Assembly (NCBI GenBank): GCA_029564765.1 | Contig: JAKQPK010000029.1 | Span: 119 to 64,118, forward strand | DNA: 64,000 nt | DNA from: Candidatus Omnitrophota bacterium | GTDB lineage: Bacteria; Omnitrophota; Gorgyraeia; Zapsychrales; Aceulaceae | Reading direction: 5' to 3' | In this document: positions 18,001-36,000 of the stretch, one piece after another | How the letters are laid out: the number at the start of each line of letters is the position of its first letter | How positions within the stretch are numbered: the stretch's first letter is position 1 | Position numbers and translations under genes: made by a program | Notes under the pieces: generated by a model | What the model was told of the DNA's origin: nothing | What the model saw: only the letters and a program-made list of their open reading frames with translations | Databases searched by the model: none

Positions 18001-21000
18001 GATCCGCAAATTCTTGATCATTTTCCCCAAGGCCGCTGTTTCTTATATGTCCTTAGTTTATACAGCGTTCTCTGTAGGTATGAAAAAAGCAATGAAGAAT
18101 AATGGTGATTATGTAAAAACAGGGCGTCGACCTGGCCGAGAACATATGGCGCCGTTTAAGCCTTTGTCAGCAATTGAACTTTTTGATCAGGATGGAAATC
18201 CAACAACAGAAACAAAAGAAGAAATCCAAGGACAAAGAATTGGCGATGCAAGTGATCTTTATGCGCAAATTAATTTGCCGGGCTTCCAGTGGGTGATCAT
18301 CGCTGTCTTTACTATTGCTGGCGGCATCTTCTTGTGGCAAAGCCCTTCAATGATTTGGTCTTTATTCCCGATTGGTATGATCGTTTGCGCTTTGTTTGCT
18401 CCGTTCATTTTGAATGCCGGTTCGTTACCGTTTACTACTGGTGTAAGATCCTGGATTCATCAGCATAGCGCTGATTGGAAAGACTTCCTTAAGAAGATTC
18501 ACGAACAATATCTTGAGGAAGTTAGCATTATGAAGCTTAAGAAGAAAACAAATTTTTACATTGAGAAAAAAATAAAAGACGTTGGTAAGAAAGCAAAAGA
18601 TGATTTAAAGAAGGGAATCCAAGGAGAAAAAGAAGAAGCCCAGGCAAAGAAAGCATTGCAAGATTATCAAGATGCTCAACAGGCAAGAAAGCAGGCGCTC
18701 GGAAAAATTAAAGTTTGGCAAGGAGCTCTTGCTTGGCTTGTCGTCACGACTATTGGCATCTTAACCGTTGTTTTTGCCGGAGGAAAAGTCTTCATCATCT
18801 TAGCCGCAACACTTTTGCTCTATACACTTTCTACGTTTGTCACCGGAACCAAAAGCATAGAAACATATTTAGCTGGTAAAAAGAAGTTTCCTTCTGTTGA
18901 TCAAGATAAAAATCCTTTTTATGCAAAAATTATTAAAGCACGTATTGTCATATATCAATGGGTTATCAAAAACCATATTTTTAAAACTATTTTAAAAACA
19001 CGAATTTCGATATCTAAATGGATTATCAAGGTCAGAGAACTCTTTAATTTTTATGTTTCTGGAACAGCTATTATGATAACGCTAACCATCGTCGGTTTTA
19101 TAAGCATCATTTTTGCTGCCCCTTATTGTATGATTGTAGGCTTAAAGAAAACCCGAATTTTAAAGAAAGGCTTTAATCCAAAGAATCGCGGAGCAGCTAA
19201 CGAGAATTCTTCAAATGATCCCCGTAACAGCCCCCGCAACAACCCGCCGGTCAACGAAAATAAGAAAGCCGTTTATGAAGAAGAAACAGAAAAAGCCGCT
19301 ACTGAAAAAGCTGAGCAAGATAGAATTGCTGAAGCTGCCCATATCGCCCAAGAGAACCGCAAAGCCCAAGAAGCCGAAGCTGCTCGCCTTGCTCAAGAAA
19401 AGGCAGATCAAGAAAAAGCCGCTCAAGCTGAAGCCGCCCGCGTGAACGGCCTTCTCGCTCAGATCAAGAATTTTATTCAATCCAGCGAAGTTACGGATGC
19501 CTTAATGAGCGATGCCGATCAGCGCGTTAGCGAGGCTGCTTCGCTTAAGAAGCAAGAGTTAAGAAATGCTGAGGCTCAGGCTGAAAAAGAAGCTGCTGAA
19601 GCCGCCCGCCTTGCTGATGAAAAGGCCGCTCAAGAAAAGGCAGATCAAGAAAAAGCCGCTCAAGCCGAAGCCGCCCGCCTTGCTGAAGAAAAAGCTGAAG
19701 CTGATCGTATCGCTGGTGAGAAAGCGGGCCAAGAAGACACAGAAACGACTCTTAACGCCCAGCAAGCCGAAGCTGATGACCGCATCGCTGAAAATAAACT
19801 TAAAGCCAATAAAGCCATAGATTCTCTTCAAAAATTGATCGATCAATATAACAATCTGATCGAGAAGTTTCGCGCTGGCAATGATCTTGCGACCGCGCAG
19901 AAATATGAACAGCTAAGAGATCAAGTTCAGGGAAAGATAGAAAAAATACGCAATGAAAATAACGGCACACTATCTTCCGCCCTTAAAGCAAATAACAGCT
20001 CAAGCTCTTCTTCGGTCAGATCGTGGAAAAATATCTTCAACAGAAATAAGATTTCTGCGCAAGATCCCGCAGAGCAGTCGACAGATAGATCAGCCGAAGA
20101 CTCTATCCAAGTTCCTGAATTTAACGAAAATGGACCTGTCAAGGTAACGCCAGAAGCAGAGGAATTGGAAGACCTGATCAGATCATTAGTTGATCAATAT
20201 AAGAACTATCTTGCCATTGTCGAAGATGTTAAGGCTCGCCTGCCGCAATTAGAGGCTTTGAGAGTTTTGTTGACCGAAACGACAAAGCAAGTGGAAGAGA
20301 CCCAAGAACTTGCGATGGGCAATGAAGATCCTGAAACGATATCAGCGATCTCAGAGGCAGTTCTTGAGATGATCAGCACGACCGAGACCTTAAGAGCGGA
20401 TCTTACAAATTTCGAAAATGAAATTGTTACTTTAAAAGAGCAGGCTGGCCAGCGATTGAACGCAATGGGCGACCTGTACGAAGACATCGCGCAAAAACAA
20501 AGATTTTATCAAGAGAAGAAAGAACAAGCTTCTCGCGCGCAGCAAAAAGCCCAAGATGCTCTGCGTAAGGCTCATGATGAATATAACACTGCCAACAACA
20601 GCCAGCAGACAGCCATAAGTCTTGTAGGCGAAAAAGAAGCTGCCGCAACAAAAGCCCAGGAAGCGATCAACGTTCTATTGCAGAGCATTCAGACAGCCAA
20701 AGAATGGCTCGATCCTTTGAAAGAAGAACTCCGATCCCTTGAGCAAAGAATACGTGACGAAAAAGCATTAGAAGCTGGTCGTCGAAGCCAGAGGGAAACC
20801 TTCGAAAATAGGGCTGATCATCTAGAAAATAAAAAGAATGTATTGCAAGCAGAATTAGATGCGATCGACCAGCAGCTTAACGATGTTTTGAGATCTTTAT
20901 CTGAAGCGCGTGCGAAAGAGGCGGAAGCGTTGCTTCTGATGACCACGAAAGAGGCTGAAGAAAACGACGCCCGTTTAGCCGCAAAGGCCGCGCAAGCATC

Positions 21001-24000
21001 TTGCAAAAAAGCCAAAGAAGAAGCTTTAGCGCAAAGACGTAGCGAAGAATTAGCCCGCACTCTTGCCCAAGATGCTGAGATCCAGGCTCAAGGATTTGAA
21101 GAAAATGAAAATGATGCCAGAAGCATAGCAGAAGCTAATGAACAAAAAGCTGAAAGCACCTCCAGCGACTATCGATCCGTACAAAAACTTGCCTCTGACA
21201 AAGAAAGCGCAATGTTGCGCGAACAAGCTGATGAGCAAGAAGCTACGCGAAAAGTTTATGATCTGACAGAGCAAAAGCTTCAGCTGGAAAAACAGGCGCA
21301 ACAAGCACAAGCAATTATTGCTCAAAAAGAACGCGAAGCTAAGGCCTATCGGACAAAAGAGCAGAACCATAGAATGCTCGCGGAGCAGAAAGAAAAAGAT
21401 ATAGAACAGCAAGAAAAGATCAAGCAAGAAGCTCGCGAGCGGATGATCAAAGAAGGTTTGCAGGCAAGATCTGCCTCTTTATGGGAGCAGCATGAAGAGA
21501 TCAGGAAGCTTCTTGCTTCTGCTGAAAACGATAAAGGAACGCTGCAAAGAACAATCGACGACAATGTTTTGTCTATCGGTAAGCTTAAAGAAGAGCAAGC
21601 AAAGAATAAAGAGAGGCTATCTGATGTTTTGCAAGAGATAGAAGCTGTTCGCTCTAAGATCCAAGAAAGCCGGAAAAAGATCTATGATGCCAACAATGGC
21701 TATGGGGCTTCTTTAAAAGAAAGAAATTCACAGGCCGTTGCTTCAGAAAGCGGCATGGACGAGTTGTTGTTCTCGCAAAGAACCCTTTTAACCGAGAAAC
21801 AACATTTAGAGGAGAGGGACACAGAAATTAGCCGAGCGCTTGGAGGCTTGCAAAATAGTCTAACAAAGCATCGCATTGCTGTTGTCTCGCTTAATAAGAA
21901 AATTGTTGAAAATAGCCCGAAATTTAGGCGCATACGAAAAGAAGCAGAAAGCGTAGATCAGCTGATAACAGACCTGCAGAGCGCGATAGAAAGGGCCAAT
22001 GCCGCCAGCACAGAATATGTTCTTGCTGCTCAGAAAGAACGCAGGCAGGAAGACGAAAATCGTCAGTTGGCAATAGGGATTGAAATAGAAATAAAGAATG
22101 CAAAGTCTTCTAAAGACCAGGCAAAAAAGATGATCGAAGACCTGGAACAGCAGATCCTTGGCAAGAAGGCCGCGCAAGAAACAGCAAAGAGCAGATTCTT
22201 TGAGCTAAAAAGCTCTTTTGGATCTTTGCAAGCACGTGCTCGCGCCTTGGGCGAAGAGAATAAGGGCGCGTCTGAGAAGGCGAAGGCCGCGCGCGATCAG
22301 GAAAAGCTATTTTGTCAGAAAAAAGAAGAATCTTTGCATGTGGCCCGCCTAAAGCGTCAAGAGGAGCAAGAAGCTCGTCAGGAAGCGGAAGAGCAAGAAG
22401 CGCTTTCCCACAAGAAAACACAAGAGCACAATCTGTTTTTAGCTAAAGCTCGGGAAGCAAAGGAGATCTCTCAGCAGCAAGCCCAGATCGTGGAGGCGCA
22501 GCAAAAGAGGATCCTTGAGCTTGAGATCCTTCAGCAGCAGTTCAGCGAGAGCTCTTCTAAGAAGCGTTCTCAGGTAGGACGGCTAGCGCAGATCCTCAAT
22601 CTTTTATTCAAGGAGATCAACGAAAAGATCCTCAACGAGGAGAATCTGAGACAATCTTGGCAAGAATATGAGCAACAATACAATACACAGCAGACTGTTT
22701 ACGCGTCTACGTCAAAAGAGAAATTTGACGCTGAACAAGAAGTCCTTAAGCAACAAAACATCCTTCAGCTATCACAGCAAGAGAAGATAAGGCAGGAAAC
22801 GATCGCTTATGAGGCTCAGCAAATAGCCGAACGATCACAGACAGAAATAGATCATCTGAGCGCAAAGATCTTGCGCGCCCAACAGGATGAGATCCGCTTT
22901 GGGCAGGTCATGATCGACATAGAAAGGCTGCATACGGAAACGACACGCCAATGGCTTGCAAAGATCTCCGATGAGATCAAAAAAGACCGATCACAAGGCC
23001 AAGGCGCTTCGCCGATATCTGAGCCTTTCATTCCCGTGCCGTCGATAACACCAGCGTCTTCGATCTTGTTGCCGAGTATTTTAATGCCAACATTTATAGT
23101 GATCCCAGGCTTTTTAAGCCGTTCGTACCCATCCAATAGGGGCCAAGGCGTTTTAAGTAATGATGCTATTCGCGCTTGGCTTGCCGAAAAGATTTCTGCA
23201 CCAACAAAAGCTGTCAAAGAGAACCAGGGGTTGGTGTTCGGAAAGCCGTTGTCGCAATCGACAACGGCTTTCTCTTTGCTTCGCCCCAGGGAAAATTTGG
23301 TCAGGGATGAGATTTCTTCACAAACAGGCCGCTGTCAGAATCTTCCTACCGTGGCAGGAAGCAAGATTTCTTCAACAGCGGCCTTTGCTTTGATCGATAA
23401 GTCGTCGAAGGCTGACCTTCTTTCCGTGGCTGGAACGGGCACCGATGTGGCGACTTTAAATTTTGCTAACAGGCCGTTATTAGAAACATCTTCTTTCCGT
23501 GGTCCCGCTCCTCTCATTCAAAATTTTGTTTATCAAGGAAAAGGAAGCGGTATCCAGATTTCCTCTCGAAATAAATTTAAGGGGAATCTGGTCTGGAACC
23601 GGGTTTCGAGCACGGCCTGTTCTTTATTTTTCAGTGGTTTCAATTCGACTTCTAAATTTTTCTCACAAAACAGGCCGGCGCTTAATCCTTACCGTGGCAG
23701 GGAAGATTTTAATGCACCGGCTTCTGTTTCTTGTTCATTGATAAATATTTTAAGAACGGTCTCGATCTGTTTCTTGGCCGCCGCTATCTTGACTTTTGCA
23801 TCTTGCAAGAAAGAGGAAGAAGACCTGATCAGCCAAGGCATTTGGCCGGTCAGCGTGACGACCCAGAATAACCAGATCTATGTTGATGGCACGCAGTTTC
23901 GGATCAAGGGCCTCACAGCAGACCAAAAACTCTTGACCATGGATGACCTCGCGCAGATCAAAAAGCTTGGCAATGACATTACCTTGCGCGTTTATCTGCC

Positions 24001-27000
24001 TGTTGTGAACAAAGAACTTTTAGCAAAAGCTGCCCAAGAGAATATTAAGCTTATTATCGTTATTCCTTATGATATTAAAGCCGGATCTGTTTACGCTCTT
24101 AAAGACGGTTTTTATGCGGCTTATATCGAAGACTATAAAAAATACGCTGCTATTTTAATGTACGAACTTGGCAACGAATATAATCTCCACCCTGAATGGT
24201 TCAACGGTGACATCAATGTTTGGTACGCAGCCGCGGAAGAGGCTGCTCAAGTGATCAAATCGATCGATCCATCTCGTCCAGTCTCGATGTCTTTTGGCGG
24301 TTGGGCTCCAACCCCTGATATTATCGCCCAATGTCCTTCTGTTGACGTCTGGAGCTTAAACGTTTATCAAGGCTTAAGCTTAAGCGGTGTTTATTCCGCT
24401 TGGCAATCCTTAGGCGTCAACAAGCCGATGTATGTCGGTGAAACAGGCGCGGATTCTTGGAATGCTACAACAAATCAAGAAGATGAGGCTGCACAGGCGT
24501 ATGCCGCTAAAACGCTTTGGCAGGAATATGCGCAGTCCTACACAAATGTTTGCGCTGGCATAACCTTCATGACCTTGCAAGACAATCCTACCTTAACTCA
24601 AAGCCTTCCGTTGTCTGTTTATCCGGATAACACGGCCAATGAATGGGCATGGGGCTGGCTCAGATCTAACGGAACACCCAAAGCTGTTGTCGATACCATG
24701 GCCAATGTGTGGGCGGGGAATGGCGGTAAGAAAAATATAAAAATTAAGCTGGCCCCCAACGAGAAGATTGAAAAAAAGAACAGCAATAAAAAAGTATCGT
24801 CCGCTATTATTTTAGATATTTATGATCCAGGCTTGCTGCTTTTGACAGTTGTTTTTTGGGGGGGTGCTATTATTTTTGTCATTTACCACATATTGAAGTT
24901 TATTGCGAGCACTATACAAGAAGTCGTAAGAACGCGTCAAAACAAAAGATCGCAAGCAAATCAGCAAGGAAAAGATGAGCTAAAAGAGATCTTTTTGTCA
25001 GCTTTAAGGGATGTTGACGAGGGTAAAGGAAGCGGAGAAGTTAAAGAAGCTTTTATTCGTAATCGTCAACAGTTAAACCAATTATTTGCCGAAAACAGCA
25101 TTATTTATCGTGAGCACACCTGGGGGACGATGATGGTTACCCCAGATGGCGTATACAATAATGAATATGATTTCCCACAAAGATACTCTAACACAAAAGA
25201 GCGAGAGGAGCTCGTAGGCAGCAAGAATATTGAAGATTTTGGTTATCAAGATTCCTTTTTAGGGGACGAGAAAGCTGGTATAGAGATCACGTATCGACTA
25301 TCTCGTAAAATAAACACTGCGAAGCTGAAAGATTTCTTTCTTCAGTTTACTCGGGAAGCGGCGATAATATTTTCCTATATTCCCGGAGAACCTTCTGAAG
25401 CCGTTTTTTCTTTTCAGCTTCTTTTAGACGAAGCTCTTGTAAAAGCTGCGGAAATCTACCAGCAAGGTTTTCATTTCAAAATTGATATAGACGAGGCAAC
25501 AGAGGAGAGAGGAAGATATCATTCTTGTACAGATGCAAATAGTAATCATTGCTGTGGTGAACCTTATGCTTCAGGATGCCCAGGATCAGGATATTGGGTT
25601 GTTACGGGGATCTCCACTCGTGTTACTAAAAACGGCGAGATACATAAGACAAAAAAGACCTCTTCTTCAACCCTTAGCCAGCGCAAAGCCCAAGAGATAT
25701 TATTCTCCTTTTTAGCGCAGGAAGACCAGCTTCCTTCTGATCCGGCTGACTTGTTGTTATTGTTAGGCAACAGCCGCTTGGAAACAGTTGAATTAGCTGC
25801 ATATATATACAATCAAGGATTAGCTAGAAATATATTTGTTACCGGCGGCATTGGAAGGGAAACACCATTTCTCGTTAACAACATCAAACGATCTGGAAGA
25901 TATTTAGTCCAGTCGAACCAGCCTGAGGCGTACATATTTAAGGATGTTCTTGTCGCCAATGGGGTCCCAGAAGGCGCTATTTTTGTAGAAGACCTATCAA
26001 CTAATTCAAAAGAAAATATTATTTATAGCAAAGAGATCATTGAGGATCGAAATATTGCGCATGATGTTGTTATTCTGGTCCAGCATCCTTTGATCCAGAA
26101 AAGAGCGGTGGCCACATTCAAACGCTGGATGAGCGATGATGTTGTCATAAGCCGTACGCCTTCCTGGAGAAACATTTGGAATAGACTGACAACAGAAGAG
26201 CAACGAGATTTCACAAAGATGGCTTTAGGAGAAATTGATCGACTTCAAAAATATGGTCCCAAGGGCTTTGGCGATATTGCTTATGTCAAGATCCCTTCCC
26301 GGGTATCGGAAGCATATTCTATTTTAAAAGGAAAGATTTCTTCATCTATTTCTTCTTTTCGTTTTTATTTTAAGTTATCTCTGCTTGTCTTAAGTCTGGG
26401 CCTTTTTACTGCCTGTTCTTCTCGCGATCAGAACGAGAAGAACAATCAGGCGGAACAATCGGTACGCCAGTGCCCACAGATGAAAGTCGAAGACAGGGCA
26501 AAGCTTTCCGATATTCTTGAGCGCGCAGGGTATTCTGGCGCGGCTAAGGATCAGCTGATTAATGAGTTTGCAATACTTTTCCAAGAGATCAACTTTGAGC
26601 GCTTCCAGAAAGAATTACAAACCGAAGATCCTGAAGATCTGGAAAAAGCCATCAACGAACTTATCAGCGTTCTTAAGGGAAAAGGATATTTAGACACTTC
26701 CAATCCCAAGACATTGCTGAAGCTTTTAGTCAACGGTCTTAATCCAAGAGGCGAAGATGTTTTTAAATTGTTGGACGAGTCTAGCTTGAGCAACGAAGTC
26801 AAGACTTTAGAAAAAGAAATCCTTGTTGCTTGTTCTGCTCAATCCCAATTAGCATATATTCTTCTGCGCTTAGCTGATATATCTGCAATTGGAATTCTTT
26901 CAGATAATCCACATCTTTCAAAAGCCGGGCATGCTTATGTCATTATAGAAACAAGGAGCGGACGGTTTATTTTTGTAGATTTTGTAAATAGATTTGCTCG

Positions 27001-30000
27001 AATTATAAATCTTTTTAAGTTTTATCAAAAAGAAGGAGAATTTTGGGTAATAAAATTACAATATAGGTTAAATAAAGATGCATTACCTAAAAAGTCGCCA
27101 GACCTGAAGAGCTCCATAGACATAGAACTCCTTAATCAGCTTTCTTATTACTTTCTTATTTCATCAAAAGATAAAGGAGATTTTATTACTTCTGGCATCT
27201 TAGTTAATATCGCATCTACTTATTCTAAATTAGTTAGATATCATGAAGCAATGCAACTTTGTAAAGAAGCCATTAGACTTAATCCGAACAATGCCGTGGC
27301 ATTTTATAATTTAGGTGTTTTTTATGCTAAATTAAATCAATCTCATAAAGCAATTCAAGCTTATGAAGAAGCCATTAGGCTTAATCCGAACAATGCCGAT
27401 GTTTATTATAATCTCGGTGTTACATATGACAATTTAAGCCAATATAGCGAAGCAATTCAAGCATATAAAGAAGCCATTAGGTTTAATCAGAATTATGCTG
27501 AGGCTTATTCTAATTTAGGCGTTACGTATTGTGCTTTAATGCGACACTTTGATGCAGTTCGAGCATTGGAAAAAGCGATTAGACTTGATCCAAGCCTTGC
27601 CGAGGCTTATCTTAATTTGGGTAGTGCGTATTATCTGGCGGGAAACGAAAACAAAGCATTAGAAAGCTGGGAAAAAGCTGTGCAGTTAGACGGTACGTTT
27701 TTGAATCTGCTTCCTGCGAATATTAAAGCTAAAATTCTTCAAAAAGGCAGTTCAAGCGTTCAGGCATGCTTAAAGAAACTCGCGCTTAAAGGCCTCTTTT
27801 TAGCTATGGGAATAGGTCTTTTCTTTTCATGCAAGAAAGACAATATTGTGGAGCCTATCGATCCATCTCCGGCACAGGATACAGTTCCTGCTTATCTGCT
27901 CAATGAGCGCATAGGTTTTGTTGAGACCGGCTCAATCGATGGGGGTATGTTGTGGCTTAAAGATATGAAGGGCACAAATACAGCTCTATTAAGTGATGGG
28001 GTTTGGAGTGATGTCAAGTGGGCGCCTTGCGGCGATAAGGCTGTTTTTTCTATTCGAGAGAACGGGCAATATTTTATGAAAGTTGTTGATACCCTTGGCA
28101 CGATTAGAATTAAGATGACAGATGGGGCAGCCAATTATGACGCTCAATGGCTAAGTGATACAACAGTGCTTTATACAAATAATTTTGATGGTATTTATAA
28201 GCTTAACGTGAATACAGGCATTTCAGAAGTTCTTTTTAAAACAAACGGTTATGTGCTGGACCATAATCCTGCAGTTCACGGAAACAAGCTTGCGTTTATT
28301 GAGCATTATTATGAAACATTCTTTTCTTTGAGGCTAAAAGATATAGACGGAACAAATAACTTTGCAACATTATTCAAAGGGAATTCTGCATTTAACGAGC
28401 ATATGGGCTTAGTCTGGACGCCAGACGGTAGGAAGCTCATATTTTTCTCGCAGGTGAACGGTGGCCTTATTTATGTTTACGATGTTTTTGTTCGGTCAAT
28501 GGATACTATCAGCCTTCAAGATCTCGGAATACCAATGTATATGAGGATGCTTCTTTCTCCAGACGGCCAGAAGATTGCTATTGGCGGGCATTATGTAGTA
28601 AATATTGATGGGACTGGGTTTTCCCAGATGAACGAAAATATATATCAGCCGCTTGCCTATGCGTGGTCATGGGATAGTCAATATATCATTGCTTCTCCAT
28701 GGAACCAGGATGTTTATATTTATAGCGTTGATGGATCAAAGGGATACACTGTTAAAGACGTTACGCGGAAGCCGTATTTTATTAATGGAATATCATGGCG
28801 TCCTCAAGGAGATAAAAAGGGCGTGATTGTTGGCGGCAAGGCCAATTCTCCGATCGGTTCTCGTCAGGACATTCCAAGCCTTCCTTTGATGGACAGATCT
28901 ATCAGTAGTCCTATGAATTTATTGCCGACCATGCCGGTCTTTGCGCCGATGATGTTCGTCGCCGGCGCTGTGCCGGGTGCAAGGTTTGTGCTGACAGCTT
29001 TGGCAGTCTTAACGATTATTACGATCTTAGGAAAGTGGTTTGCTAAGCGAATTAGTGCGTCTAACGCTGATCAGCAAGCATCAACTTTGGTTTTGTTCTT
29101 TGAAAAAATGAAGTTGATGTCAGGTCTTTCGGTTGAAATGAAAGAAGAAAAAGACCTGAATAACTTTGCGGCATTTTCCAACAGGCCGCTGCCCAATCTT
29201 CCTTCCGTGGCAGGAATTAGATATGTGGCAGCGGCTGCTTTCTTTTCTTACCGCAGTCCCGCTTTCCTAAGTAAGAATAAAGGAAGCGTTACGACTGTCT
29301 TCGCCAATCGTCCCGTTTCCCTTAAAGAAAATCAAGGAAACGGTATCCAGATTTCCATTAAAAATCGATTCAAAGTGAATCTAGTCAGGATGAAAGATTT
29401 GGCACCGACCTTTGTTCTTTTTCCCCAAGCCTCTTCCTCAGCGTTAAAAAATGATTTTGATATGCATATTTATTCTATGCTTAACGTGATTCCTTCGGTT
29501 TCTGCGCAAGGATGGTCTTTCGGGGTAAAAGAATTTTCAAAAATTTTAGCCAACGCAGACATCCGCTATTCAATTGAGGTTGGAAGCTTTGTTAAAGGAT
29601 TTCCTAAATCTATCGCACGAACACTACACTTAAAGTTTCTCGATTCAAGTATTAAAGGATCGCCATTGTTGAATTTAGCGAGCGCCGAAACTCGACAGAA
29701 AGCCGAAGATGGTACGCTTCATCTATATGATGTTGTTAAAAAAGTTAGACCGCAGATCATATCTTTCCATCTCGGATTTTCAGTAGAAGCGGTCGTTGTG
29801 AATTCTAAAACAAGAGATTTTGAACCAGCGTCAAATACTTTCAGCGCGATGACGCAAAGCGAGGTTTTTGATAGCATTGCTGCGACAACACGCGCCATTT
29901 TCGAAGCCTTGAAAAATTTAGGATATAAGAAAAATGATCTTCTTTTAGAAAATCTTGTTTATTCTGAAAATGGCGCGTTTGAACATGTTTGCAATCCATA

Positions 30001-33000
30001 TTTTATCCGTTCTGTTTGGCAGGAAACAGAATATGGAGCGCTGGTCGATTTCGGTCACGCCTTTGTCAGTGCTAAGCTACTCGGTTACGATCCAAAAGAT
30101 TACATTAAGATTATTATTAATAAAGATAATATTTCCCATCTTCGGGAGGTCCACATCGCTGTTCCAGGTTATGACCAAGGAAAAAAGCAATGGAGAGATC
30201 AGCACAATTGTTTCTCCAGCGATACCGGGAGCGAAGCCAACCAAGCGCTAAGATCCATGCTTTATTATATCTTAGACCTTAGAAGAGTAGAGAGCGTGTC
30301 CGAGCCTTTGATTGTTAATTTTGAGACAGGAGAGGAAAGCGCGACCAGAGAACTTGATGCTTTAAATAGCTATTTGTGCGAAGTTTCTTCAAGCGTGTTA
30401 TCTTTTTTTAGAAATTGGCGGGAAATACGTAAGGAAAAAAGAACGATAGAAGCCATTCAATTTATCAACAGTTTTGATGAAAAGGATGACAACAATATAT
30501 ATATAAGTGAAAATTTAATAATGAATGATGTTTATGATAGGTATGTTAAGACAGGCGTAAATTTTTCACAGTTTATGGAATATGCTGCATTTCTTGCGGC
30601 GACCAAAGATCATCGAAGATTCAAAATTCTTCCAAAGCTAAGAGAAGTATTTTTAAAGCTACCCTCTAAGGTTACCAGAAGCTCCCTCTACAATGGTGAT
30701 ACCTTTGTAGGCATAACATCCGGTTCTTGTTTTGAGAGTGACGAGCTTTTAAAGATAATAAATGACATAGAAAGCTCCTTAAGAGAAAGAAATTCTTCGG
30801 CAACAGCTATTTCCTCCCCAAGCCGATACAATCCTCATAAAAGTTTTGGGTATCGTCCGCAGAGCTGGAATGAGGAAAAAGGTTTTGAGTATCAGCCAAG
30901 AAGAAAATATTCTTATCCCATCAGAGAGCGCTCTTCCAAAGGCTCCGAAAACGACCAAGAAAAAGAGAGCGAAGCATCTTCTGAGCAAGAGAATGATCCG
31001 CAAACGTCTGAAAACAAAGAGCAGCAAGCAACCAGCGAGAGTTCTTCGAACGTCAAGCTTGTAAAAAGAATAGAAGCGGTCGTTCCGCGGCTGGAAAAGT
31101 ACGCCTTTACCTATATTAAAAGCTGCTATTTGTATGATCATAACGCTCATAGCAAGCTCTCCAGGGTGCATCCCGCGGCTATTTATCTTCCTTTAGTTTT
31201 CTTTTTAGAAGGAGGATGTTCATCCTACCCGCATGTAGAAGAAGCGATCGCATTATTAGCTATCATTTTAGAACCTCAAGATTTCGAAGGCTTTCAGAAG
31301 TCTGCCTGCGCTTGTGACGCCAAACCTGTTCATTTGGTCTATCGCGCGATGGCAAGATCAGAAAAATATCACACAAAGAAAGCTTCTATGGCGAGCCCTC
31401 TGGCGTCCGTGATATCAAGCAGTCTTCGCCGTTTTGTTCTGACCACCATTGTTTTGATCGCTATGAGCGTGACATCCCTTTTCGCCCAAGCGATACCCCA
31501 AGAGAACGCCCAGCTCGATGAATCATGGCGCGTGCGTTTTCTCGCGATCAATGCCAGAGAGATAAAACATTTGGACATGATCTCTATCGGCCAAGACGTG
31601 TATGATACTGTTTTACGTGGTCAGCTTGAGCGAGAGATCGTTCAAAAGAGAGTGTTCTTGGAAAAGAGTTCTTGGCAGTATCAGGAAATGGAGCAAGACA
31701 AGGAAGTTTTGCGTATTTTAAAACTTGTTGAAAACGCGAAAAATAAGCGAGACCTTGAAAACATTGTCATCGGGTCGCAAGTATTCGATCCCCAAGTTAG
31801 GGCGCAAATACAAGAGCATATTGTAAGCGTAAAGACGCAGCTGAAGAATTCCCAGGAATTATCTTATATTGAGGAAATGCTTAAGTTCTCGACTGAAGAA
31901 GACTTTTTGAAGAGAGCGGGAGTTTTTCAGTATATGCGTGCTTTCCCTGCAGAGCAAAGACTTTATGTTGAGAATAAAATTGCTCGGCAGCAAAGAGTGT
32001 TTGAAAAAGAAAAAGAGTATGCGCTTGCGATCTCACGCTCCCAGGGGTACTTATCTATTCTCAGCGATCTTTCGCAATGCACGAACCAGCAGGAAGTGAA
32101 TTCTATCCGCATTGATTGGGATTTGTACGATACGTATCTTAAGCAGGCGATTAGACAGGCGATACGCCAACGCTTAGAGGAGATCGATCAAGAGGCTTCT
32201 TTACACGGCCTGGAAAAAACGTTTTACGCGCGGGAAGCATTCCTTCAAAGCGCGATGCTTTATTTAACAACAGACGCTCGTCTTTCTCTCAATATTTCCA
32301 GTGATAATCCCTGGCTTGAACGATGGATCAAAAAGGAATTAATCGCGAAAGAGCGAGAATTGGTCTCTGGCAAGTTTGATATTGAGCAGGAAAAGGAAGT
32401 TTTACGTTTTTATCGAGCCATGATCGATGCCGATCAGGTAGATCTTTTGGATAGTCTGAAATATGGTCCTCAGATAACTTCTTTAGAGGTGCGCGAACAA
32501 TTGCTGAGAGAAAAGCAAGCAAAGCGAGATCTTTTAAAGAAAATAGAGGATCGTTTTCGAGAAATGGAACAATGGGCTAAGGTCGTCGATCTGCAGAGCG
32601 CGATATTTTATGCTAACGCACAGAAAGATCTTGAGGGTTTTTATGTTGATCCACAAGTCTACGATGCAGACATCCGTCAATGGCTCATGTACCAAGCCCA
32701 AGCGAAACGCCGCGTACTCGCGCAAGATGAAGAAGTGAAACGTGTAGAAAAGAAGATCGATTCCGCTGCGCGCTCTTATGATCTTGAAAACATTTTTATT
32801 GGAAAAGCAGTTGTTGATCTTTCAACATACAAGGAACTTGCGGCCAAGATCTCCGTGCGACAACAAGCCCTTAAAGAACAAGAGCGCTTGCGCATAAGGA
32901 TCCTTGAGCTTCAGGGATCTTTGAGCGTTCGCCAGGATATCCGGCGGGCTTATCAGACCCAAGACCTTGCTCGTGTTAAGATCGATGGCAATGTGACCGA

Positions 33001-36000
33001 TCAAAAGACGCTTCAGCGCGAGATCTTGGATAAAAAAGCTTATTTTGATCTTCAAAAAAGCTTATCGTTTTTGATGGATCGCGATAAGGAGATCTTAACG
33101 ATCCGCTCGCTTGTTGATAACGCCAATACAATCAATGATATAAACATTGTCCAGGCCCGGGTCAAGATCCTGGAAGAGGTAAGGTTTTTTGACGGAACCG
33201 ATTGGGCGCGAAGACTTCAGCAAGAGATCTCGATAAAGAAAGCCGAGATAGAAAAGAAAGACGACACGACACAAAAAGGAAGCGTGAATATTTTCATGAT
33301 CTTTTTCGCCTTTTTGTCCCAGCCCTGGCAAGCCCTCAAGCGTTATGCCAGCCGCCTTCTAAGCCGTCGATCTATCCGCGAACAGACCTTGCAAGAGGAT
33401 GACCAAAAAAGATCACAAAATGATAATATTCTGCGATGCGATGGATTTCGCATCGTTGAAAAGAACGTTTTTGTACCTGAGCGATTGTGGAAAGATATCG
33501 TCAAAGGGCCTTTGAGCGAGAAGATCAGCTTAGCCTTAAGGTCTATCGATGAGAATCCGTATTGTGGATTTTTAGCACGTGAATATCATTTACGTGTTTT
33601 TGTTTCGGATCGGGTCCCTGGCGCAAAGCTTTATGGATACAAGCTTGGCCCGTCACAAAGTTTGTTCTATGTCGTTTTTGATTCTCAGAAAATCCTTGTG
33701 GCAGGTGTTATCTATAATGAATTTACGCACTATTTATCTAAGAATAAGCATTGGATCGCAACGACCCAGCATACCATTGATCGCTTTGTCGCGCTGCATA
33801 GGCAAGCTCTGCAGGAAAGAACAGAGACTGTAGAGATCCCTGAAAACAAACAGAATGTGCCGTTACGTTATATGCAGGCGTTCGCGGCGCAATATGACAA
33901 GGTTGAATTTTTATACACAGAAAAAGACGGCCGAGCCTATTTTGTTATTCCAACGTCGATACAGCGCGTGAAGGACATCGTTGAGAGCAAAGGATTTAGA
34001 TATCAGATCGTTGAAAAACGTTCAACACCGACATTCTTTATTTTAGGACCTGACGATGAGCGCATAGGTCGTTTTGGCGTGTACGATGAGCGTGTTGTTA
34101 TTAATCCATGCCATGTGAACAGCTGGGATCAGGTTCAGACGATCATCGCGATCACGCGTCTTGCTCTTGACCTTAAACCCTTAAGCACGACAGGGCGTAC
34201 GAAGATCTCAAGCGGCATTCTTTTCGATCGAAGATCATGGTTTTCGGCAGATCTATTTTCTGAAAGGCCGCTGTCAATATTGCTATTTTTATCTTTCAGC
34301 TCTTTTGTGAGCAACCATGGCGGTGAGGATAAGAATGGAATGACAGCGGCCTTTTTTGCGATAGGAGCACCTATTCTTCCGCCGCAAGAGCTTACCGACA
34401 ATGTTCATTTAGCCTATCCTGTGGAGCTTGATACGCGCTTGAAGGACACCAGGCCTTCGATGAGGATAGCGACTTTCAAAGCTAAAAAGATCCTTTGGAA
34501 GGTAAAAGATTTTTCTTTATTCTTTTACGCGACAGCGCCTTTTATGTTTTTGACAGTTGGCGCTCAACAAGCGAAAGAAGAAAGCAAGGTTCGGGTTTTC
34601 GCGCCTTTGTCTTTTTATCCGGAGGCGGTTTTACGCTACAGCAGGCCAAATGTCAGGATCACTGTGTTTAAGGTCAAGAAGATAGAATGGAAAGTAAAAG
34701 ATTTTTCTTTGATTCCCCAAGCCCTTGCGCGTCAGGATCAGGATCAGCCAAAGCTTCCAAGGGATCCAAAAAGCCTTCCTTTAAAGAGTGCGCCTGCCTT
34801 AAGCGCGCAAGAACAAAATATGGACATAAGAGTCTCAAGGCCTAAGGGATCTGTGATTACTGAAAAAGGAGATTTGAGCAGCAAGGCCCCAAAAGCTTTT
34901 GAACTTTCTCATAACGATTATGCGCGGGCGGTTGCATCAAGGACGAACGCTATTTCCTGGCATCCTATCAGCAGGGGAAGATCCGTTGCCTGTACCAGCG
35001 CTGTCCTTTCTGATCATTTCTTTTTAACAGTCCTTCATAAAATCACCCTTCTTTTAGCCCGTATCCATGATCGTTTCTTTTTTGGCAGTTCGCGACACGC
35101 AAATGAGCGGCTTTCCGCCCTGTTTTATCACGCGCTTTCTGAGAAAGGCCTGTGGATATCAAAATATTTAAGGACGCGGTCGCGAGAACAAGGACGAGAG
35201 GCTTTGTACCACGAAACTCTTAAGATAATATTTTTCATCCGAAAATTTTCAGAAAGAGCGTTAGGGATCTTGCGCCACGAGCGAAGCGCCGGTCTTTGGA
35301 TCAAAGATGATGAGGCGATCGAACAGCAGCCAAAAAATTTAATGCGCCAAGAACTCTTTGTTCCCGCTAATCCTCGTCCAATGGCCGCGATGGCTGAAGG
35401 CGATCCCAAACCCGAATTTATTTTCTCGAACTTTCCTGTTTTGGAAGAAAGCGCTACCCCCACCAGCGGACAACTGGGTGCCAAGCTTGGCATCGATGCG
35501 TACGAGAAGGGGAGTGCGTGGCCACAGGATAATTCTCGTTTATTCGTAGGGTCGCTTGCAAGTACGCGAGCGGCCTCTGTTTTTTTGTCTGTTGAGCAAG
35601 CGCTTGCTTCAAGCAATGTGTCGAACTGGAAACCGATCTTTCATGTTTCTGGCCAAGGCGTTCAATGGTATTTACCGGAATATTTTCAGAAGAAAGTTAG
35701 GATCACACGGTTTGGCAAGGGAAAAAACTCGTTCGTGGAGATCGTCGACACATCTTTGTCGCCCTGGGACACAGAGAACAAGATGCGTTTATATTTCCCT
35801 TCCAAAGGCTGCGCGCGCGTCGTGTTGTTAAGATTCTTCTCTCCTTCAGGATCACAAAAGATCGTTTGGGAAGAGAAAAGCGCGGAATTTCAGACGGATC
35901 GACGAGGGTATTCGTTGACACGCCATCCTTTGATCGCGGAATTCTTGTTGCGCATGTTCGCCGTACGCCATGCAGAGGATGAGCTGACCGTTGCTGTGCG

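What the first reader, a model, noticed from the sequence alone, without database searches (positions are those of the whole stretch)
23737..31486. Gene-start-like export signals (lipobox and Sec type) recur inside the giant ORF, each followed by an envelope-type module
Three segments with lipoprotein-signal architecture occur in frame with no stop upstream: charged n-region, hydrophobic core, then Cys+1 followed by KK or SS (TFAS-C-KKEE at 23804, LFTA-C-SSRD at 26414, LFFS-C-KKDN at 27830). Each is followed by a typically periplasmic or outer-envelope module: GH-A hydrolase, then DUF218 and TPR, then a PD40 beta-propeller. A fourth, Sec-type signal peptide starts at an in-frame ATG at 31388, and another signal/anchor-like segment precedes the LysM/GH-A module at 3512. 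This looks like a string of formerly independent secreted or lipoprotein genes fused head-to-tail by loss of stop codons. Alternatively, the protein may be processed or threaded so that successive modules alternate across the membrane. Either explanation would be unusual biology.
Basis: partly seen in the sequence, partly recalled or inferred. Interest (0 to 1): 0.8.

Follow-up and report, generated by a model that had tools for sequence, protein, structure and literature searches.

The report
Signal peptides inside a giant gene
A giant Omnitrophota gene (over 21,000 codons with no stop) is a head-to-tail, in-frame string of complete gene-sized units, some still carrying their own lipoprotein or secretion signals, joined by a short conserved serine-rich junction that may mark where the giant protein is cut.

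Summary
The whole 64-kb window is one open frame of 21,333 codons. Two Sec-type signals are also present.

These signals are signal peptides by descent. The internal signal before the glycoside hydrolase aligns with the N-terminal signals of 330-aa stand-alone homologues. The lipobox Cys before the PD40 propeller aligns with the lipobox Cys of a stand-alone lipoprotein. Signals B and C have no in-frame start codon nearby, so separate translation is unlikely.

The new result is a junction motif, [V/I/A]-S-S-S-[V/I/L/A]. It occurs 15 times against 2.5 expected, and SSS is the most enriched tripeptide in the protein. It lies a few residues upstream of signals B, C and D, with a degenerate SVSCS before A. 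It also lies at the ends of complete enzyme units such as GlgA. Some related giant ORFs use S-S-P-[V/I/A] at the same module borders, between complete enzymes, an ECF sigma factor and further internal Sec, Tat and lipobox signals.

Best reading: an in-frame cassette array whose signals still direct export. Membrane threading is largely consistent with the charge pattern, and cutting at the junctions is plausible but untested. I found no description of the motif in the literature I searched.

The parts
2..64000 (+). One open reading frame of 21,333 codons, open at both window ends. It is part of an Omnitrophota giant gene.
   Evidence: No stops in this frame, against 738-1581 in the others. Fragments P0001 (100% identical) and P0171 (99.9%) are named 'Candidatus Omnitrophota bacterium' by NCBI.
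3494..3574 (+). Sec-type signal-like segment E (FKLARNVAIVVIAVVVGGLLLSTSAFA|Q). It is followed by a weak LysM hit (about nt 3803-3865) and a GH paralogue (nt 4130-4954).
23723..23737 (+). Degenerate junction (S-V-S-C-S) upstream of signal A.
   Evidence: Best-scoring site lacking an exact S-S-S in the matrix scan (score 8.9). The start Met of the stand-alone homologues aligns 1-5 residues after it.
23738..23806 (+). Lipoprotein-type signal A: LINILR / TVSICFLAAAILTFAS / C (Cys codon at nt 23804).
   Evidence: It aligns with the N-terminal signal peptides of P0002, P0010 and P0012.
23807..24739 (+). Clan-A glycoside hydrolase cassette. The NEY and GE(T/I)GADS motifs are conserved.
   Evidence: 33% identity to 330-aa stand-alone proteins over their full mature length.
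24827..24895 (+). Transmembrane helix after the GH module. It has an acidic N-flank, and basic residues (RTRQNKR) begin about 15 residues after its C-terminal end, so it is a candidate stop-transfer helix. A degenerate junction, V-S-S-A-I, lies 10 residues upstream.
25661..26338 (+). DUF218 cassette, starting at S-S-S-T (aa 8553). It would be cytoplasmic under the threading model.
   Evidence: Pfam PF02698, 53.6 bits. SSS site listed.
26339..26347 (+). Junction I-SSS-I (aa 8779-8781).
26348..26416 (+). Lipoprotein-type signal B: ISSFRFYFK / LSLLVLSLGLFTA / C (Cys codon at nt 26414). Counted from the junction, the Cys is residue 23 and the first Arg is residue 5.
   Evidence: No in-frame ATG, GTG or TTG in codons -40 to -11 before the Cys.
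26417..27748 (+). Cassette B: an uncharacterised domain of about 270 aa plus five TPR repeats. The TPR repeats form a 102-nt tandem array.
   Evidence: GC3 falls to 0.24 here.
27749..27757 (+). Junction G-SSS-V (aa 9249-9251).
27758..27832 (+). Lipoprotein-type signal C: VQACLKKLALK / GLFLAMGIGLFFS / C (Cys codon at nt 27830).
   Evidence: Its lipobox Cys aligns with the lipobox Cys of the stand-alone PD40 lipoprotein P0013.
27833..28897 (+). PD40/TolB-like beta-propeller cassette.
28898..29032 (+). Pro-rich hydrophobic stretch plus a TM helix (FVLTALAVLTIITILG followed by KWFAKR). It is a candidate stop-transfer helix and is preceded by I-S-S-P-M.
29432..30394 (+). Junction A-SSS-A (nt 29432-29440), then an MNIO/MbnB-like cassette, then junction V-SSS-V (nt 30386-30394).
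   Evidence: Pfam PF05114 and NCBIfam NF050167. The extrapolated profile ends fall at aa 9835-10118, between the SSS sites at aa 9810 and 10128.
31415..31492 (+). Junction I-SSS-L (nt 31415-31423) plus Sec-type signal D: LRR / FVLTTIVLIAMSVTSLF / AQA|IP.
33278..33337 (+). TM helix about 600 aa after signal D, with a +4 C-terminal flank. It is a candidate stop-transfer helix. Cytoplasmic-type enzyme cassettes follow it.
   Evidence: Pfam and NCBIfam hits downstream.
41624..46306 (+). Amylase-like plus GlgA cassette, bounded by P-SSS-A (nt 41624) and V-SSS-I (nt 46298). Relatives share this unit and nothing around it.
   Evidence: The GlgA profile NF001905 (positions 3-487 of 489) ends 5 residues before the SSS. 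Homology with P0172, P0173 and L003 covers only aa 13854-15424. The borders in those relatives and in L008 carry SSP[V/I].
20006..59455 (+). Span that holds all 15 SSS-[VILA] junction sites. First bases: 20006, 26339, 27749, 29432, 30386, 31415, 36893, 37034, 39161, 41624, 46298, 48257, 49442, 59042, 59447.
   Evidence: 15 observed against 2.5 +/- 1.6 in shuffles. SSS is the top-ranked tripeptide. Ser codons vary between TCN and AGY.

Best explanation
The giant ORF is an in-frame array of complete, gene-sized cassettes. Some of the captured genes encoded secreted proteins or lipoproteins, and they kept their N-terminal signal peptides. A short conserved junction, [V/I/A]-S-S-S-[V/I/L/A], has replaced the stop codon, intergenic spacer and start codon. 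Some relatives use [A/V]-S-S-P-[V/I/A] instead.

Shown:
- The internal segments are signal peptides by descent.
- They sit at cassette N-termini.
- Signals B and C have no nearby in-frame start codon, and A and D have no clear ribosome-binding site.

Inferred, step 1 (about 0.55): the signals still work as topogenic elements. During co-translational insertion, each one starts translocation of the envelope-type module that follows it. The next helix has N-out/C-in orientation and stops translocation. Hydrolase, TPR and PD40 modules therefore end up outside. DUF218, MNIO, RelA/SpoT, GlgA, HAD and PRPP-synthase modules stay inside.

Inferred, step 2 (about 0.45): the chain is then cut. Cutting could occur at the Ser-rich junctions by an unidentified protease, at the signal c-regions by signal peptidase II (lipobox) or I (AQA, AFA), or at both. 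The cassettes would then become separate proteins, some of them lipid-anchored. This would work much as a flavivirus polyprotein is threaded and then cleaved.
For: - The lipobox rule hits only the three named sites (P = 0.002).
- Signal A aligns with the N-terminal signals of stand-alone GH homologues.
- The lipobox Cys of signal C aligns with that of the stand-alone lipoprotein P0013.
- No ATG, GTG or TTG lies in codons -40 to -11 before the Cys of B or C, and there is no Shine-Dalgarno sequence before A or D.
- The junction motif occurs 15 times against 2.5 expected. SSS is the most enriched of all tripeptides. Its codons vary between TCN and AGY, so selection acts at the protein level.
- The motif coincides with independent module borders: the GlgA profile ends 5 residues before an SSS, and the MNIO unit fits between two SSS sites.
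- The only block shared with P0172, P0173 and L003 is aa 13854-15424, which lies between two SSS sites.
- Relatives carry SSP-[V/I/A] at the same borders: L008 has 17 against 1.46 expected, and P0040 has 13 against 0.97.
- In relatives the motif separates complete enzymes of single-gene size: a radical SAM enzyme of 460 aa, an amine oxidase of 455 aa whose Rossmann motif starts at residue 14, a Zn-ADH of 351 aa, and an ECF sigma factor of 261 aa.
- Relatives also have further internal lipobox, Tat-like and Sec-like signals directly after the motif.
- Motif sites are followed by a hydrophobic segment within 30 residues in 4 of 15 cases, against a 4.6% background (P = 0.004).
- Threading: signals A, B and D have net-positive N-flanks. 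The next helices (aa 8275, 9661, 11092) are followed by basic residues. Cytoplasmic-type enzymes lie in the predicted inside segments.
- Cutting: signals B and C follow one another with no stop-transfer helix between them. A Tat-type signal and a sigma factor embedded in giant ORFs are hard to use without release. One giant encodes an LspA domain, and published work names cleavage points as an open question.
Against: - There is no experimental evidence for export, lipidation or cleavage.
- No peptidase domain was found in the 21,333 residues of the window.
- Position -3 of all three lipoboxes is Phe, not the canonical Leu.
- Signal C conflicts with simple threading.
- Cassettes B and C lie in a low-GC3 island, so their signals could be unerased remnants of a recent capture.
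- The motif is absent from several related giant ORFs (L005, L006, L007, L009) and from the first 6,600 residues of this one. It is therefore lineage- and region-specific and may be only a preferred linker.
- No orthologue of the nt 23717-31501 region was found, so conservation of the signals themselves could not be tested.
- SignalP, LipoP and DeepTMHMM were not available.
Confidence: 0.55

Rival explanations
1. The product is an uncleaved giant multi-pass membrane protein. The signal-like segments act only as internal start-transfer helices. The Ser-rich motif is a favoured inter-domain linker or a modification site such as phosphorylation or glycosylation. The product stays one polypeptide, with envelope modules outside and enzyme modules inside.
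For: - The alternation of positive-N-flank signals with helices followed by basic residues fits the positive-inside rule for A, B and D.
- Module types match the predicted sides of the membrane.
- Published topology predictions also describe these giants as membrane-anchored.
- No protease domain was found in the window.
Against: - Signals B and C are consecutive with no stop-transfer helix between them. The 13-residue h-region of C cannot insert N-in from the periplasm.
- A sharply defined 5-residue motif kept through TCN/AGY codon changes, and co-varying between lineages (SSS-hydrophobic against SSP-hydrophobic), is unlike ordinary linkers.
- A complete ECF sigma factor and a Tat-type signal embedded in related giants are hard to use while tethered.
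Confidence: 0.25
2. The signals are evolutionary relics. Complete foreign genes were captured recently, signal peptides included. The signals have no present function and have not yet decayed.
For: - Cassettes B, C and MNIO lie in a low-GC3 island (0.24-0.38 against a mean of 0.455).
- The TPR repeats are recent DNA-level duplicates.
- GH modules in other giants mostly lack a preceding signal.
- No other giant shares this region.
Against: - All five signals keep an intact n-region, h-region and c-region. All three lipoboxes keep Cys, which is rare here (0.57% of residues).
- Signal A lies outside the strongest part of the GC3 dip.
- Hydrophobic sorting segments are enriched directly after junctions across the protein, and the same is seen in independent relatives.
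- The matching stop-transfer helices would not be expected for inert relics.
Confidence: 0.15
3. The cassettes are really separate genes. They are either translated from internal starts, or the single frame is an assembly or sequencing artefact or reflects an unusual genetic code.
For: - There is an in-frame ATG at nt 31388 before signal D and a TTG at nt 23738 before signal A.
- The related locus L003 is split into four overlapping frames.
Against: - There is no stop in 64 kb, while the other frames have 738-1581.
- Independent NCBI MAG fragments are 99.9-100% identical and also open.
- Five related loci are open across their full 21.6 kb.
- No start codon lies near signals B or C, and there is no Shine-Dalgarno sequence.
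- Promoter-like sites occur at the shuffled expectation (20 against 19.7), and there are no Rfam matches.
- An internal start would in any case read through to the end of the giant ORF.
Confidence: 0.05

Closest known systems
Omnitrophota giant ORFs: the 'Archaeovorin' and 'multi-enzyme metabolic cluster' architectures (West-Roberts et al. 2023, bioRxiv 10.1101/2023.11.21.568195; bioRxiv 10.64898/2026.06.07.730766; Seymour et al. 2023, PMC10066038)
   Same: - An open frame of more than 21,000 codons, with fragments named as Omnitrophota.
- Many hydrophobic helices.
- Starch synthase, GT1, HAD, methyltransferase and hydrolase content.
- Sparse Pfam coverage.
- The literature poses the same open question of whether the product is cleaved.
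   Different: - Those studies treat hydrophobic segments as generic TM helices. One deliberately suppresses internal signal-peptide calls.
- In the texts I searched, none describes lipobox or Tat signals at internal cassette starts, or a conserved Ser-rich junction.
- No SecA_DEAD or C39 domain occurs in this window.
Bacterial lipoprotein signal peptides (Lgt/LspA/Lnt pathway; PROSITE PS51257 rule)
   Same: - A positive n-region, an uncharged h-region of 13-16 residues, [AGS]-Cys, and a polar +2/+3.
- Counted from the junction, Cys falls at residues 23-25, and a Lys or Arg lies within the first 7 residues, as the rule requires (rule recalled from memory; positions).
   Different: - The signals are thousands of residues from any N-terminus as encoded.
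- Position -3 is Phe rather than Leu/Val/Ile.
- Processing is untested.
Flavivirus-type polyproteins, which are threaded through a membrane by internal signal and stop-transfer sequences and then cut by host signal peptidase on one side and a dedicated protease on the other
   Same: - One ORF holds several complete proteins.
- Internal signal sequences alternate with stop-transfer helices.
- There is a short recurrent junction motif.
- Soluble enzymes lie on the cytoplasmic side.
   Different: - This is a cellular bacterial gene more than ten times longer.
- No protease has been identified and cleavage has not been shown.
- The resemblance rests on established knowledge of flavivirus biology, not on homology.
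Processed bacterial surface polyproteins (Porphyromonas gingipains RgpA/Kgp; Mycoplasma P97/P102-family adhesins, which are cut at short motifs)
   Same: A large envelope-associated precursor with recurrent short sites between functional units. This is from my own knowledge and was not tested here.
   Different: Those precursors have one N-terminal signal and adhesin or protease domains. They are not dozens of unrelated complete enzymes, each with its own sorting signal.

Membership tests
Bacterial lipoprotein signal peptide (SPase II substrate) | Lipobox with an invariant Cys preceded by a small residue, after an uncharged hydrophobic h-region | tested here: met
   The PROSITE-type pattern matches at aa 7934, 8804 and 9276 only. 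The h-regions are 13-16 residues long. Position -3 is Phe, which is non-canonical but is shared with the stand-alone homologue P0013.
Bacterial lipoprotein signal peptide (SPase II substrate) | Positively charged n-region | tested here: met
   Net charge of the flank is +1, +2 and +3.
Bacterial lipoprotein signal peptide (SPase II substrate) | Located at the N-terminus of the translation product (Cys within residues 15-35) | tested here: not met
   As encoded, the signals are internal to an uninterrupted frame, and B and C have no nearby start codon. The criterion would be met only if the chain were cut at the Ser-rich junction, which would place Cys at residues 23-25.
Bacterial lipoprotein signal peptide (SPase II substrate) | Diacylglyceryl modification by Lgt and cleavage by LspA | not testable with these tools
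   This needs proteomics, or globomycin or labelling experiments. The only indirect hint is that a related giant protein carries an LspA Pfam domain.
Omnitrophota giant genes | ORF of more than 10,000 codons in an Omnitrophota genome | tested here: met
   21,333 codons, open at both ends. P0001 and P0171 are 99.9-100% identical and NCBI names them Candidatus Omnitrophota bacterium.
Omnitrophota giant genes | Numerous transmembrane segments and multi-enzyme content (starch synthase, GT1, HAD, methyltransferase) | tested here: met
   33 hydrophobic runs. Pfam and NCBIfam hits.
Omnitrophota giant genes | SecA_DEAD and/or C39/S8 peptidase domains, which most full-length giants are reported to have | tested here: not met
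   None was found at E <= 0.01 in the 21,333 residues of the window. The gene continues beyond both ends, so their absence from the full gene is not established.
Proteolytically processed polyprotein | Several complete, independently functional protein units in one ORF | tested here: met
   - Full-length GlgA (profile positions 3-487 of 489), the GH unit and the PD40 lipoprotein unit.
- In relatives: a complete radical SAM enzyme, amine oxidase, Zn-ADH and ECF sigma factor.
Proteolytically processed polyprotein | Recurrent short motif at the unit borders | tested here: met
   SSS-[VILA] occurs 15 times against 2.5 expected. SSP-[VIA] is the counterpart in relatives, at homologous borders.
Proteolytically processed polyprotein | A cognate protease and demonstrated cleavage | not testable with these tools
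   No peptidase domain occurs in the window. Cleavage can only be shown by N-terminomics or by expression experiments.
Polytopic membrane protein with start-transfer and stop-transfer topogenesis | Hydrophobic segments alternate in orientation, consistent with the positive-inside rule and with module type | tested here: inconclusive
   The pattern is consistent for signal A with TM 8275, signal B, TM 9661, and signal D with TM 11092. Signal C breaks the alternation. This was a hand analysis of flank charges only; no topology predictor was available.

The most novel reading that the evidence does not exclude
Some Omnitrophota giant genes are true bacterial polyproteins. On this reading, dozens of complete proteins are translated as one chain and released by cleavage at a dedicated [A/V/I]-S-S-[S/P]-hydrophobic junction. 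They include cytoplasmic enzymes, a sigma factor, and Sec, Tat and lipoprotein substrates. Every internal signal peptide would become a working N-terminal one. The giant gene would then be an operon without stop codons rather than a giant protein.
Probability: 0.35. Interest if true: 0.92.

Novelty: new variant of a known kind. Interest (0 to 1): 0.8.

Why it matters
Giant Omnitrophota ORFs reach 147,155 codons. They are currently discussed as single giant surface proteins. Both main studies say it is unknown whether, and where, they are cut.

This window gives concrete, testable coordinates. It shows a junction motif conserved at the protein level, and complete sorting signals (lipobox and Sec here; Tat-like in a relative) directly downstream of it.

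If the junctions are cleavage sites, three things follow. The giants would be the first cellular polyproteins on this scale. Their apparent size would say little about the size of the working proteins. Their predicted topologies and functions would have to be re-read cassette by cassette.

Even without cleavage, the motif gives a rational way to cut these proteins into units for structure prediction and annotation. It also shows that giant genes grow by in-frame capture and shuffling of whole genes.

Tried and rejected
**Internal translation starts.** Rejected for B and C, which have no ATG, GTG or TTG in codons -40 to -11 before the Cys. No Shine-Dalgarno sequence precedes A or D. The codon after SSS is not consistently a near-cognate start (GTG 3 times, ATT 2, CTT 4, GCG 2, and others).

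**DNA-level junction site, such as a recombination core or restriction-like site.** Rejected, because the Ser codons switch freely between TCN and AGY both here and in relatives.

**RNA elements or ribozymes at junctions.** There are no Rfam matches. Promoter-like sites are at the shuffled expectation.

**Orthologues of the nt 23717-31501 region.** The genome-contig scan returned only TPR hits. The first metagenome-contig scan found nothing. Conservation of the signals themselves therefore could not be measured.

**SSS-[VILA] in 150 relatives found through the glucan-synthase region.** Enrichment was only mild (48 against 26 expected). The lineage-specific SSP variant appeared only after inspecting P0172 and P0173.

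**Strict lipobox hits in relatives.** Most lie inside multi-TM bundles and are not signal-like.

**Structure prediction of the N-terminal domain of cassette B.** I suspected a Cys/His peptidase. The single-sequence AlphaFold2 model was unusable (pLDDT 46), so I ran no fold search.

**PDB search of the MNIO cassette.** No hits.

**GH modules in other giants.** Most are not preceded by a signal, so the signal-plus-GH arrangement is not universal.

Full report
**1. What the window is**

Frame +2 (nt 2-64000) contains no stop codon in 21,333 codons. The other five frames contain 738-1581 stops each. Two NCBI protein fragments named "Candidatus Omnitrophota bacterium" are 100% (P0001) and 99.9% (P0171) identical to parts of it. 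The window is therefore an internal piece of one of the giant ORFs known from Omnitrophota.

Pfam and NCBIfam find the following:
- an FKS-like glucan-synthase region in a multi-TM block (aa 5465-5959);
- DUF218, five TPR repeats, and a weak PD40 hit;
- an MNIO/MbnB-like unit and a RelA/SpoT unit;
- a glucan phosphorylase-like unit, then an amylase-like unit plus a full GlgA;
- HAD, PRTase, a nucleotidyltransferase, PRPP synthetase, CheR, and a T2SS-ATPase fragment.

The first 4,800 residues have no hit at E <= 0.01 when scanned as one piece. Shorter sub-queries give only weak LysM and clan-A GH hits.

**2. Checking the observation**

Their Cys codons are at nt 23804, 26414 and 27830.

A PROSITE-type lipobox pattern matches exactly these three sites among the 122 cysteines. 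I then required a hydrophobic core, an uncharged run of 10-30 residues and a net-positive n-region. Random relocation of the cysteines then gives a mean of 0.235 hits, and P(>=3) = 0.002.

The uncharged h-regions are 13-16 residues long. That is signal-peptide length and is too short for a normal membrane span. This last judgement is from my own knowledge.

Two Sec-type segments are also present:
- SSS-LRR-FVLTTIVLIAMSVTSLF-AQA|IP, with the in-frame ATG at nt 31388 upstream of it;
- FKLAR-NVAIVVIAVVVGGLLLSTS-AFA|Q, at nt 3494-3574.

The second of these is followed by a weak LysM hit and by a paralogue of the GH module.

DUF218 lies upstream of the second lipobox, not after it. Position -3 of all three lipoboxes is Phe.

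**3. The segments are signal peptides by descent**

The GH cassette is 33% identical to a family of 330-aa stand-alone proteins. These begin MKKIFIAFLLSTNLAYS-IEV... In the multiple alignment their N-terminal signal peptides lie on top of the internal segment, and their start Met falls 1-5 residues after the S-V-S-C-S that precedes it.

The PD40 cassette aligns with P0013 over 97% of its length. The alignment runs through the signal, so the lipobox Cys of each sequence is aligned: LFFS-C-KKD against MFLS-C-KTD. P0013 is a separate gene with in-frame stops upstream.

**4. Not separately translated**

No in-frame ATG, GTG or TTG lies in codons -40 to -11 before the Cys of B or C. A has only a TTG and D only an ATG, and neither has a purine-rich ribosome-binding site. 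Promoter-like sites occur at the shuffled expectation, and there are no Rfam matches.

**5. A junction motif**

Each of signals B, C and D is preceded by S-S-S. The n-region follows directly, and the hydrophobic core begins 6-14 residues after the motif. A is preceded by a degenerate S-V-S-C-S.

- SSS-[VILA] occurs 15 times against 2.5 +/- 1.6 in shuffles (maximum 8).
- [VILA]-SSS-[VILA] occurs 9 times against 0.67.
- In an unbiased scan, SSS is the most enriched of all 8,000 tripeptides (26 against 7.8, P = 2e-7). SSSV is the second most enriched tetrapeptide.
- The Ser codons vary freely between TCN and AGY, so the constraint acts on the peptide and not on the DNA.
- All 15 sites lie between aa 6668 and 19815.

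Counted from the residue after the motif, the lipobox Cys is residue 23-25, and a Lys or Arg lies within the first seven residues. That is what the full PROSITE lipoprotein rule demands of a true N-terminus. I recalled the rule from memory; the positions come.

**6. The motif marks cassette borders, and not only at signals**

- An NCBIfam GlgA model (positions 3-487 of 489) ends five residues before the SSS at aa 15432 (PDB alignment).
- The MNIO unit fits between the SSS sites at aa 9810 and 10128.
- DUF218 starts after an S-S-S-T at aa 8553.
- Two related large proteins (P0172, P0173) and the locus L003 share only aa 13854-15424 with this ORF. That is the block between SSS 13874 and SSS 15432, and the flanks are unrelated.

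Cassettes are therefore units of evolutionary shuffling.

**7. The motif is conserved as a variant in relatives**

At those same borders P0172 and P0173 carry S-S-S-P-[V/I], sometimes expanded into tandem arrays such as ESLRSSSPTRT.

SSP is the top tripeptide in P0040 (13 against 0.97, P = 5e-11) and in P0166.

A second metagenome scan with a GlgA-cassette alignment returned five loci, each open across its whole 21.6 kb. One of them, L008, has 17 SSP against 1.46 expected (P = 5e-13). It carries the motif at both ends of the homologous amylase-plus-GlgA cassette. The other four lack the motif, so it is lineage-specific.

Between motifs in the relatives lie complete, single-gene-sized units:
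- a radical SAM enzyme (460 aa);
- an amine oxidase (455 aa), whose N-terminal Rossmann GxGxxG starts at residue 14;
- a Zn-ADH (351 aa);
- a full ECF sigma factor (261 aa), followed by a unit that starts with a TM anchor.

Relatives also show further internal sorting signals directly after the motif:
- SSSP-AHVSLTPYFTNIGLVVATLFITS-C (P0040);
- SSP-VSDKSDMNRRGFLVVAGSSVFGLWG-C (P0040), which is Tat-like plus a lipobox;
- SSPV-AEIFKRSVKMFLNGAALASSLIFGVSHVDA (L008).

In the window, motif sites are followed by a hydrophobic segment within 30 residues in 4 of 15 cases, against a 4.6% background (P = 0.004). With a relaxed motif the figure is 6 of 15 (P = 3e-5).

**8. How it may work**

*Threading.* Flank charges give a largely coherent alternating topology:

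| Element | Proposed orientation or side | Note |
|---|---|---|
| Signal A | in to out | positive N-flank |
| GH module | outside | |
| TM at aa 8275 | out to in | RTRQNKR begins about 15 residues downstream |
| DUF218 | inside | |
| Signal B | in to out | positive N-flank |
| Cassette B with TPR, then PD40 | outside | |
| TM at aa 9661 | out to in | KWFAKR follows |
| MNIO | inside | |
| Signal D | in to out | positive N-flank |
| About 600 aa | outside | |
| TM at aa 11092 | out to in | +4 C-flank |

After the last helix comes a long run of cytoplasmic-type enzymes. All three helices that follow exported modules have the N-out/C-in orientation that a stop-transfer helix needs. From my own knowledge, this is the rarer orientation for N-terminal anchors of independent proteins. 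This argues that the chain is continuous while it is being inserted.

*Cutting.* Four points argue for it.
- Signal C follows cassette B with no stop-transfer helix between them, and it cannot insert N-in from the periplasm.
- A Tat signal or a sigma factor inside a giant chain is hard to use without release.
- The motif is too sharp, and co-varies too clearly between lineages, to be an ordinary linker.
- One published giant contains an LspA domain, and the field lists unknown cleavage points as the obstacle to understanding these proteins.

If Lgt/LspA and signal peptidase I act on the internal signals, they would themselves sever the chain.

I therefore favour co-translational threading followed by processing. 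The closest mechanistic analogue is a flavivirus polyprotein; this is an analogy from established knowledge, not homology.

The alternatives remain open: an uncleaved giant protein, or relic signals from a recent capture. The relic reading is supported by the low-GC3 island over aa 8250-10250.

**9. Novelty**

Giant Omnitrophota ORFs and their many TM helices are known. Internal signal peptides have been treated as artefacts. Text searches of the two giant-gene preprints for linker, junction, serine and motif found no description of a junction motif. This is a new variant of a known kind. If cleavage is shown, it would be a new way of organising a bacterial gene set.

**10. Limits**

- No orthologue of the nt 23717-31501 region was found.
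- No dedicated signal or topology predictor could be run.
- No protease was identified.
- Single-sequence structure prediction of the unknown domain in cassette B failed.

Noticed in passing
window 20006-59455 (15 sites); also L003, L008, P0040, P0166, P0172, P0173: A conserved Ser-rich junction lies between gene-sized cassettes: [V/I/A]-SSS-[V/I/L/A] here and [A/V]-SSP-[V/I/A] in some relatives. It is the most enriched tripeptide in each of those proteins. Its codons vary between TCN and AGY. In L003 it is expanded into tandem arrays (SSSPSRTESLR repeated; SSPIISWENIKEAGTSARSA repeated).
   Followed up: yes
window 24752-30751 (aa 8250-10250): A low-GC3 island: 0.24-0.38 against a window mean of 0.455, with the lowest value over the TPR repeats. 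It covers the TM helix and spacer after the GH cassette, plus DUF218, B/TPR, PD40 and MNIO. This suggests that these cassettes were acquired more recently from a lower-GC source.
   Followed up: partly
window 23240-23273: A perfect 15-bp stem with a 4-nt loop (GGAAAGCCGTTGTCG CAAT CGACAACGGCTTTCT) lies inside the ORF, about 460 nt upstream of signal A. It sits in a low-complexity stretch with no Pfam hit. It could be a relic of a terminator or another element from a captured gene.
   Followed up: no
window 23541-23597 and 29334-29390 (wider: aa 7674-7911 and 9632-9810): A 57-nt direct repeat (79% identical) forms the core of a duplicated 'connector' of about 100 aa or more. The connector has a Pro-rich hydrophobic stretch, then ..LP(T/S)VAG.., ..FANRP.. 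and G-x-G-IQIS-x-(K/R)N(K/R)FK-x-NLV. Both copies lie just before a new cassette (GH at aa 7911, MNIO at aa 9810).
   Followed up: partly
window 16397-17879 (aa 5465-5959), within the multi-TM block at aa 5116-6380: There is a strong match to the eukaryote-type 1,3-beta-glucan synthase (FKS) family PF02364 (250 bits). In the 1.84-billion-protein library, 901 proteins match the 1,200-aa query around it (aa 5100-6300) at E <= 0.001. Many of the best 150 are fragments of 2.5-7.9 kaa, probably from other giant ORFs. This block and the 6,600 residues before the first junction lack the Ser motif.
   Followed up: partly
window 4130-4954 versus 23807-24739: A second copy of the clan-A GH module lies downstream of the Sec-type signal at nt 3494-3574. 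It includes a 48-nt stretch that is 83% identical at the DNA level (nt 4609-4656 against 24334-24381). Related giants carry the same module at internal positions (P0026, P0036, P0037, P0066, P0080).
   Followed up: partly
L003 (ENA ERZ25039459 contig_38025), locus nt 9521-10053, 15991-16060 and 21792-22251: In this relative the giant ORF is split into four same-strand pieces whose open frames overlap. The first break falls inside an SSSP repeat array. The cause could be indel errors in the assembly or genuine frameshifts; this is unresolved.
   Followed up: no
L008 nt 17081-18490: A complete ECF sigma factor (regions 2 and 4) is embedded in a giant ORF between two SSP junctions. The next cassette starts with a TM anchor, which resembles a sigma/anti-sigma gene pair fused in frame.
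   Followed up: partly
window 1071-1771 and 19373-19725: Two internal repeat regions. One has four copies with a 222-nt period (74 aa) and is rich in S, V and A, near the window start. The other is an AQEKA-type repeat with a 15-nt period, probably coiled coil, just before the first junction site.
   Followed up: no
window 27220-27627: The TPR repeats form a 102-nt tandem array. The copies are 62-78% identical at the DNA level, which indicates recent internal duplication.
   Followed up: no
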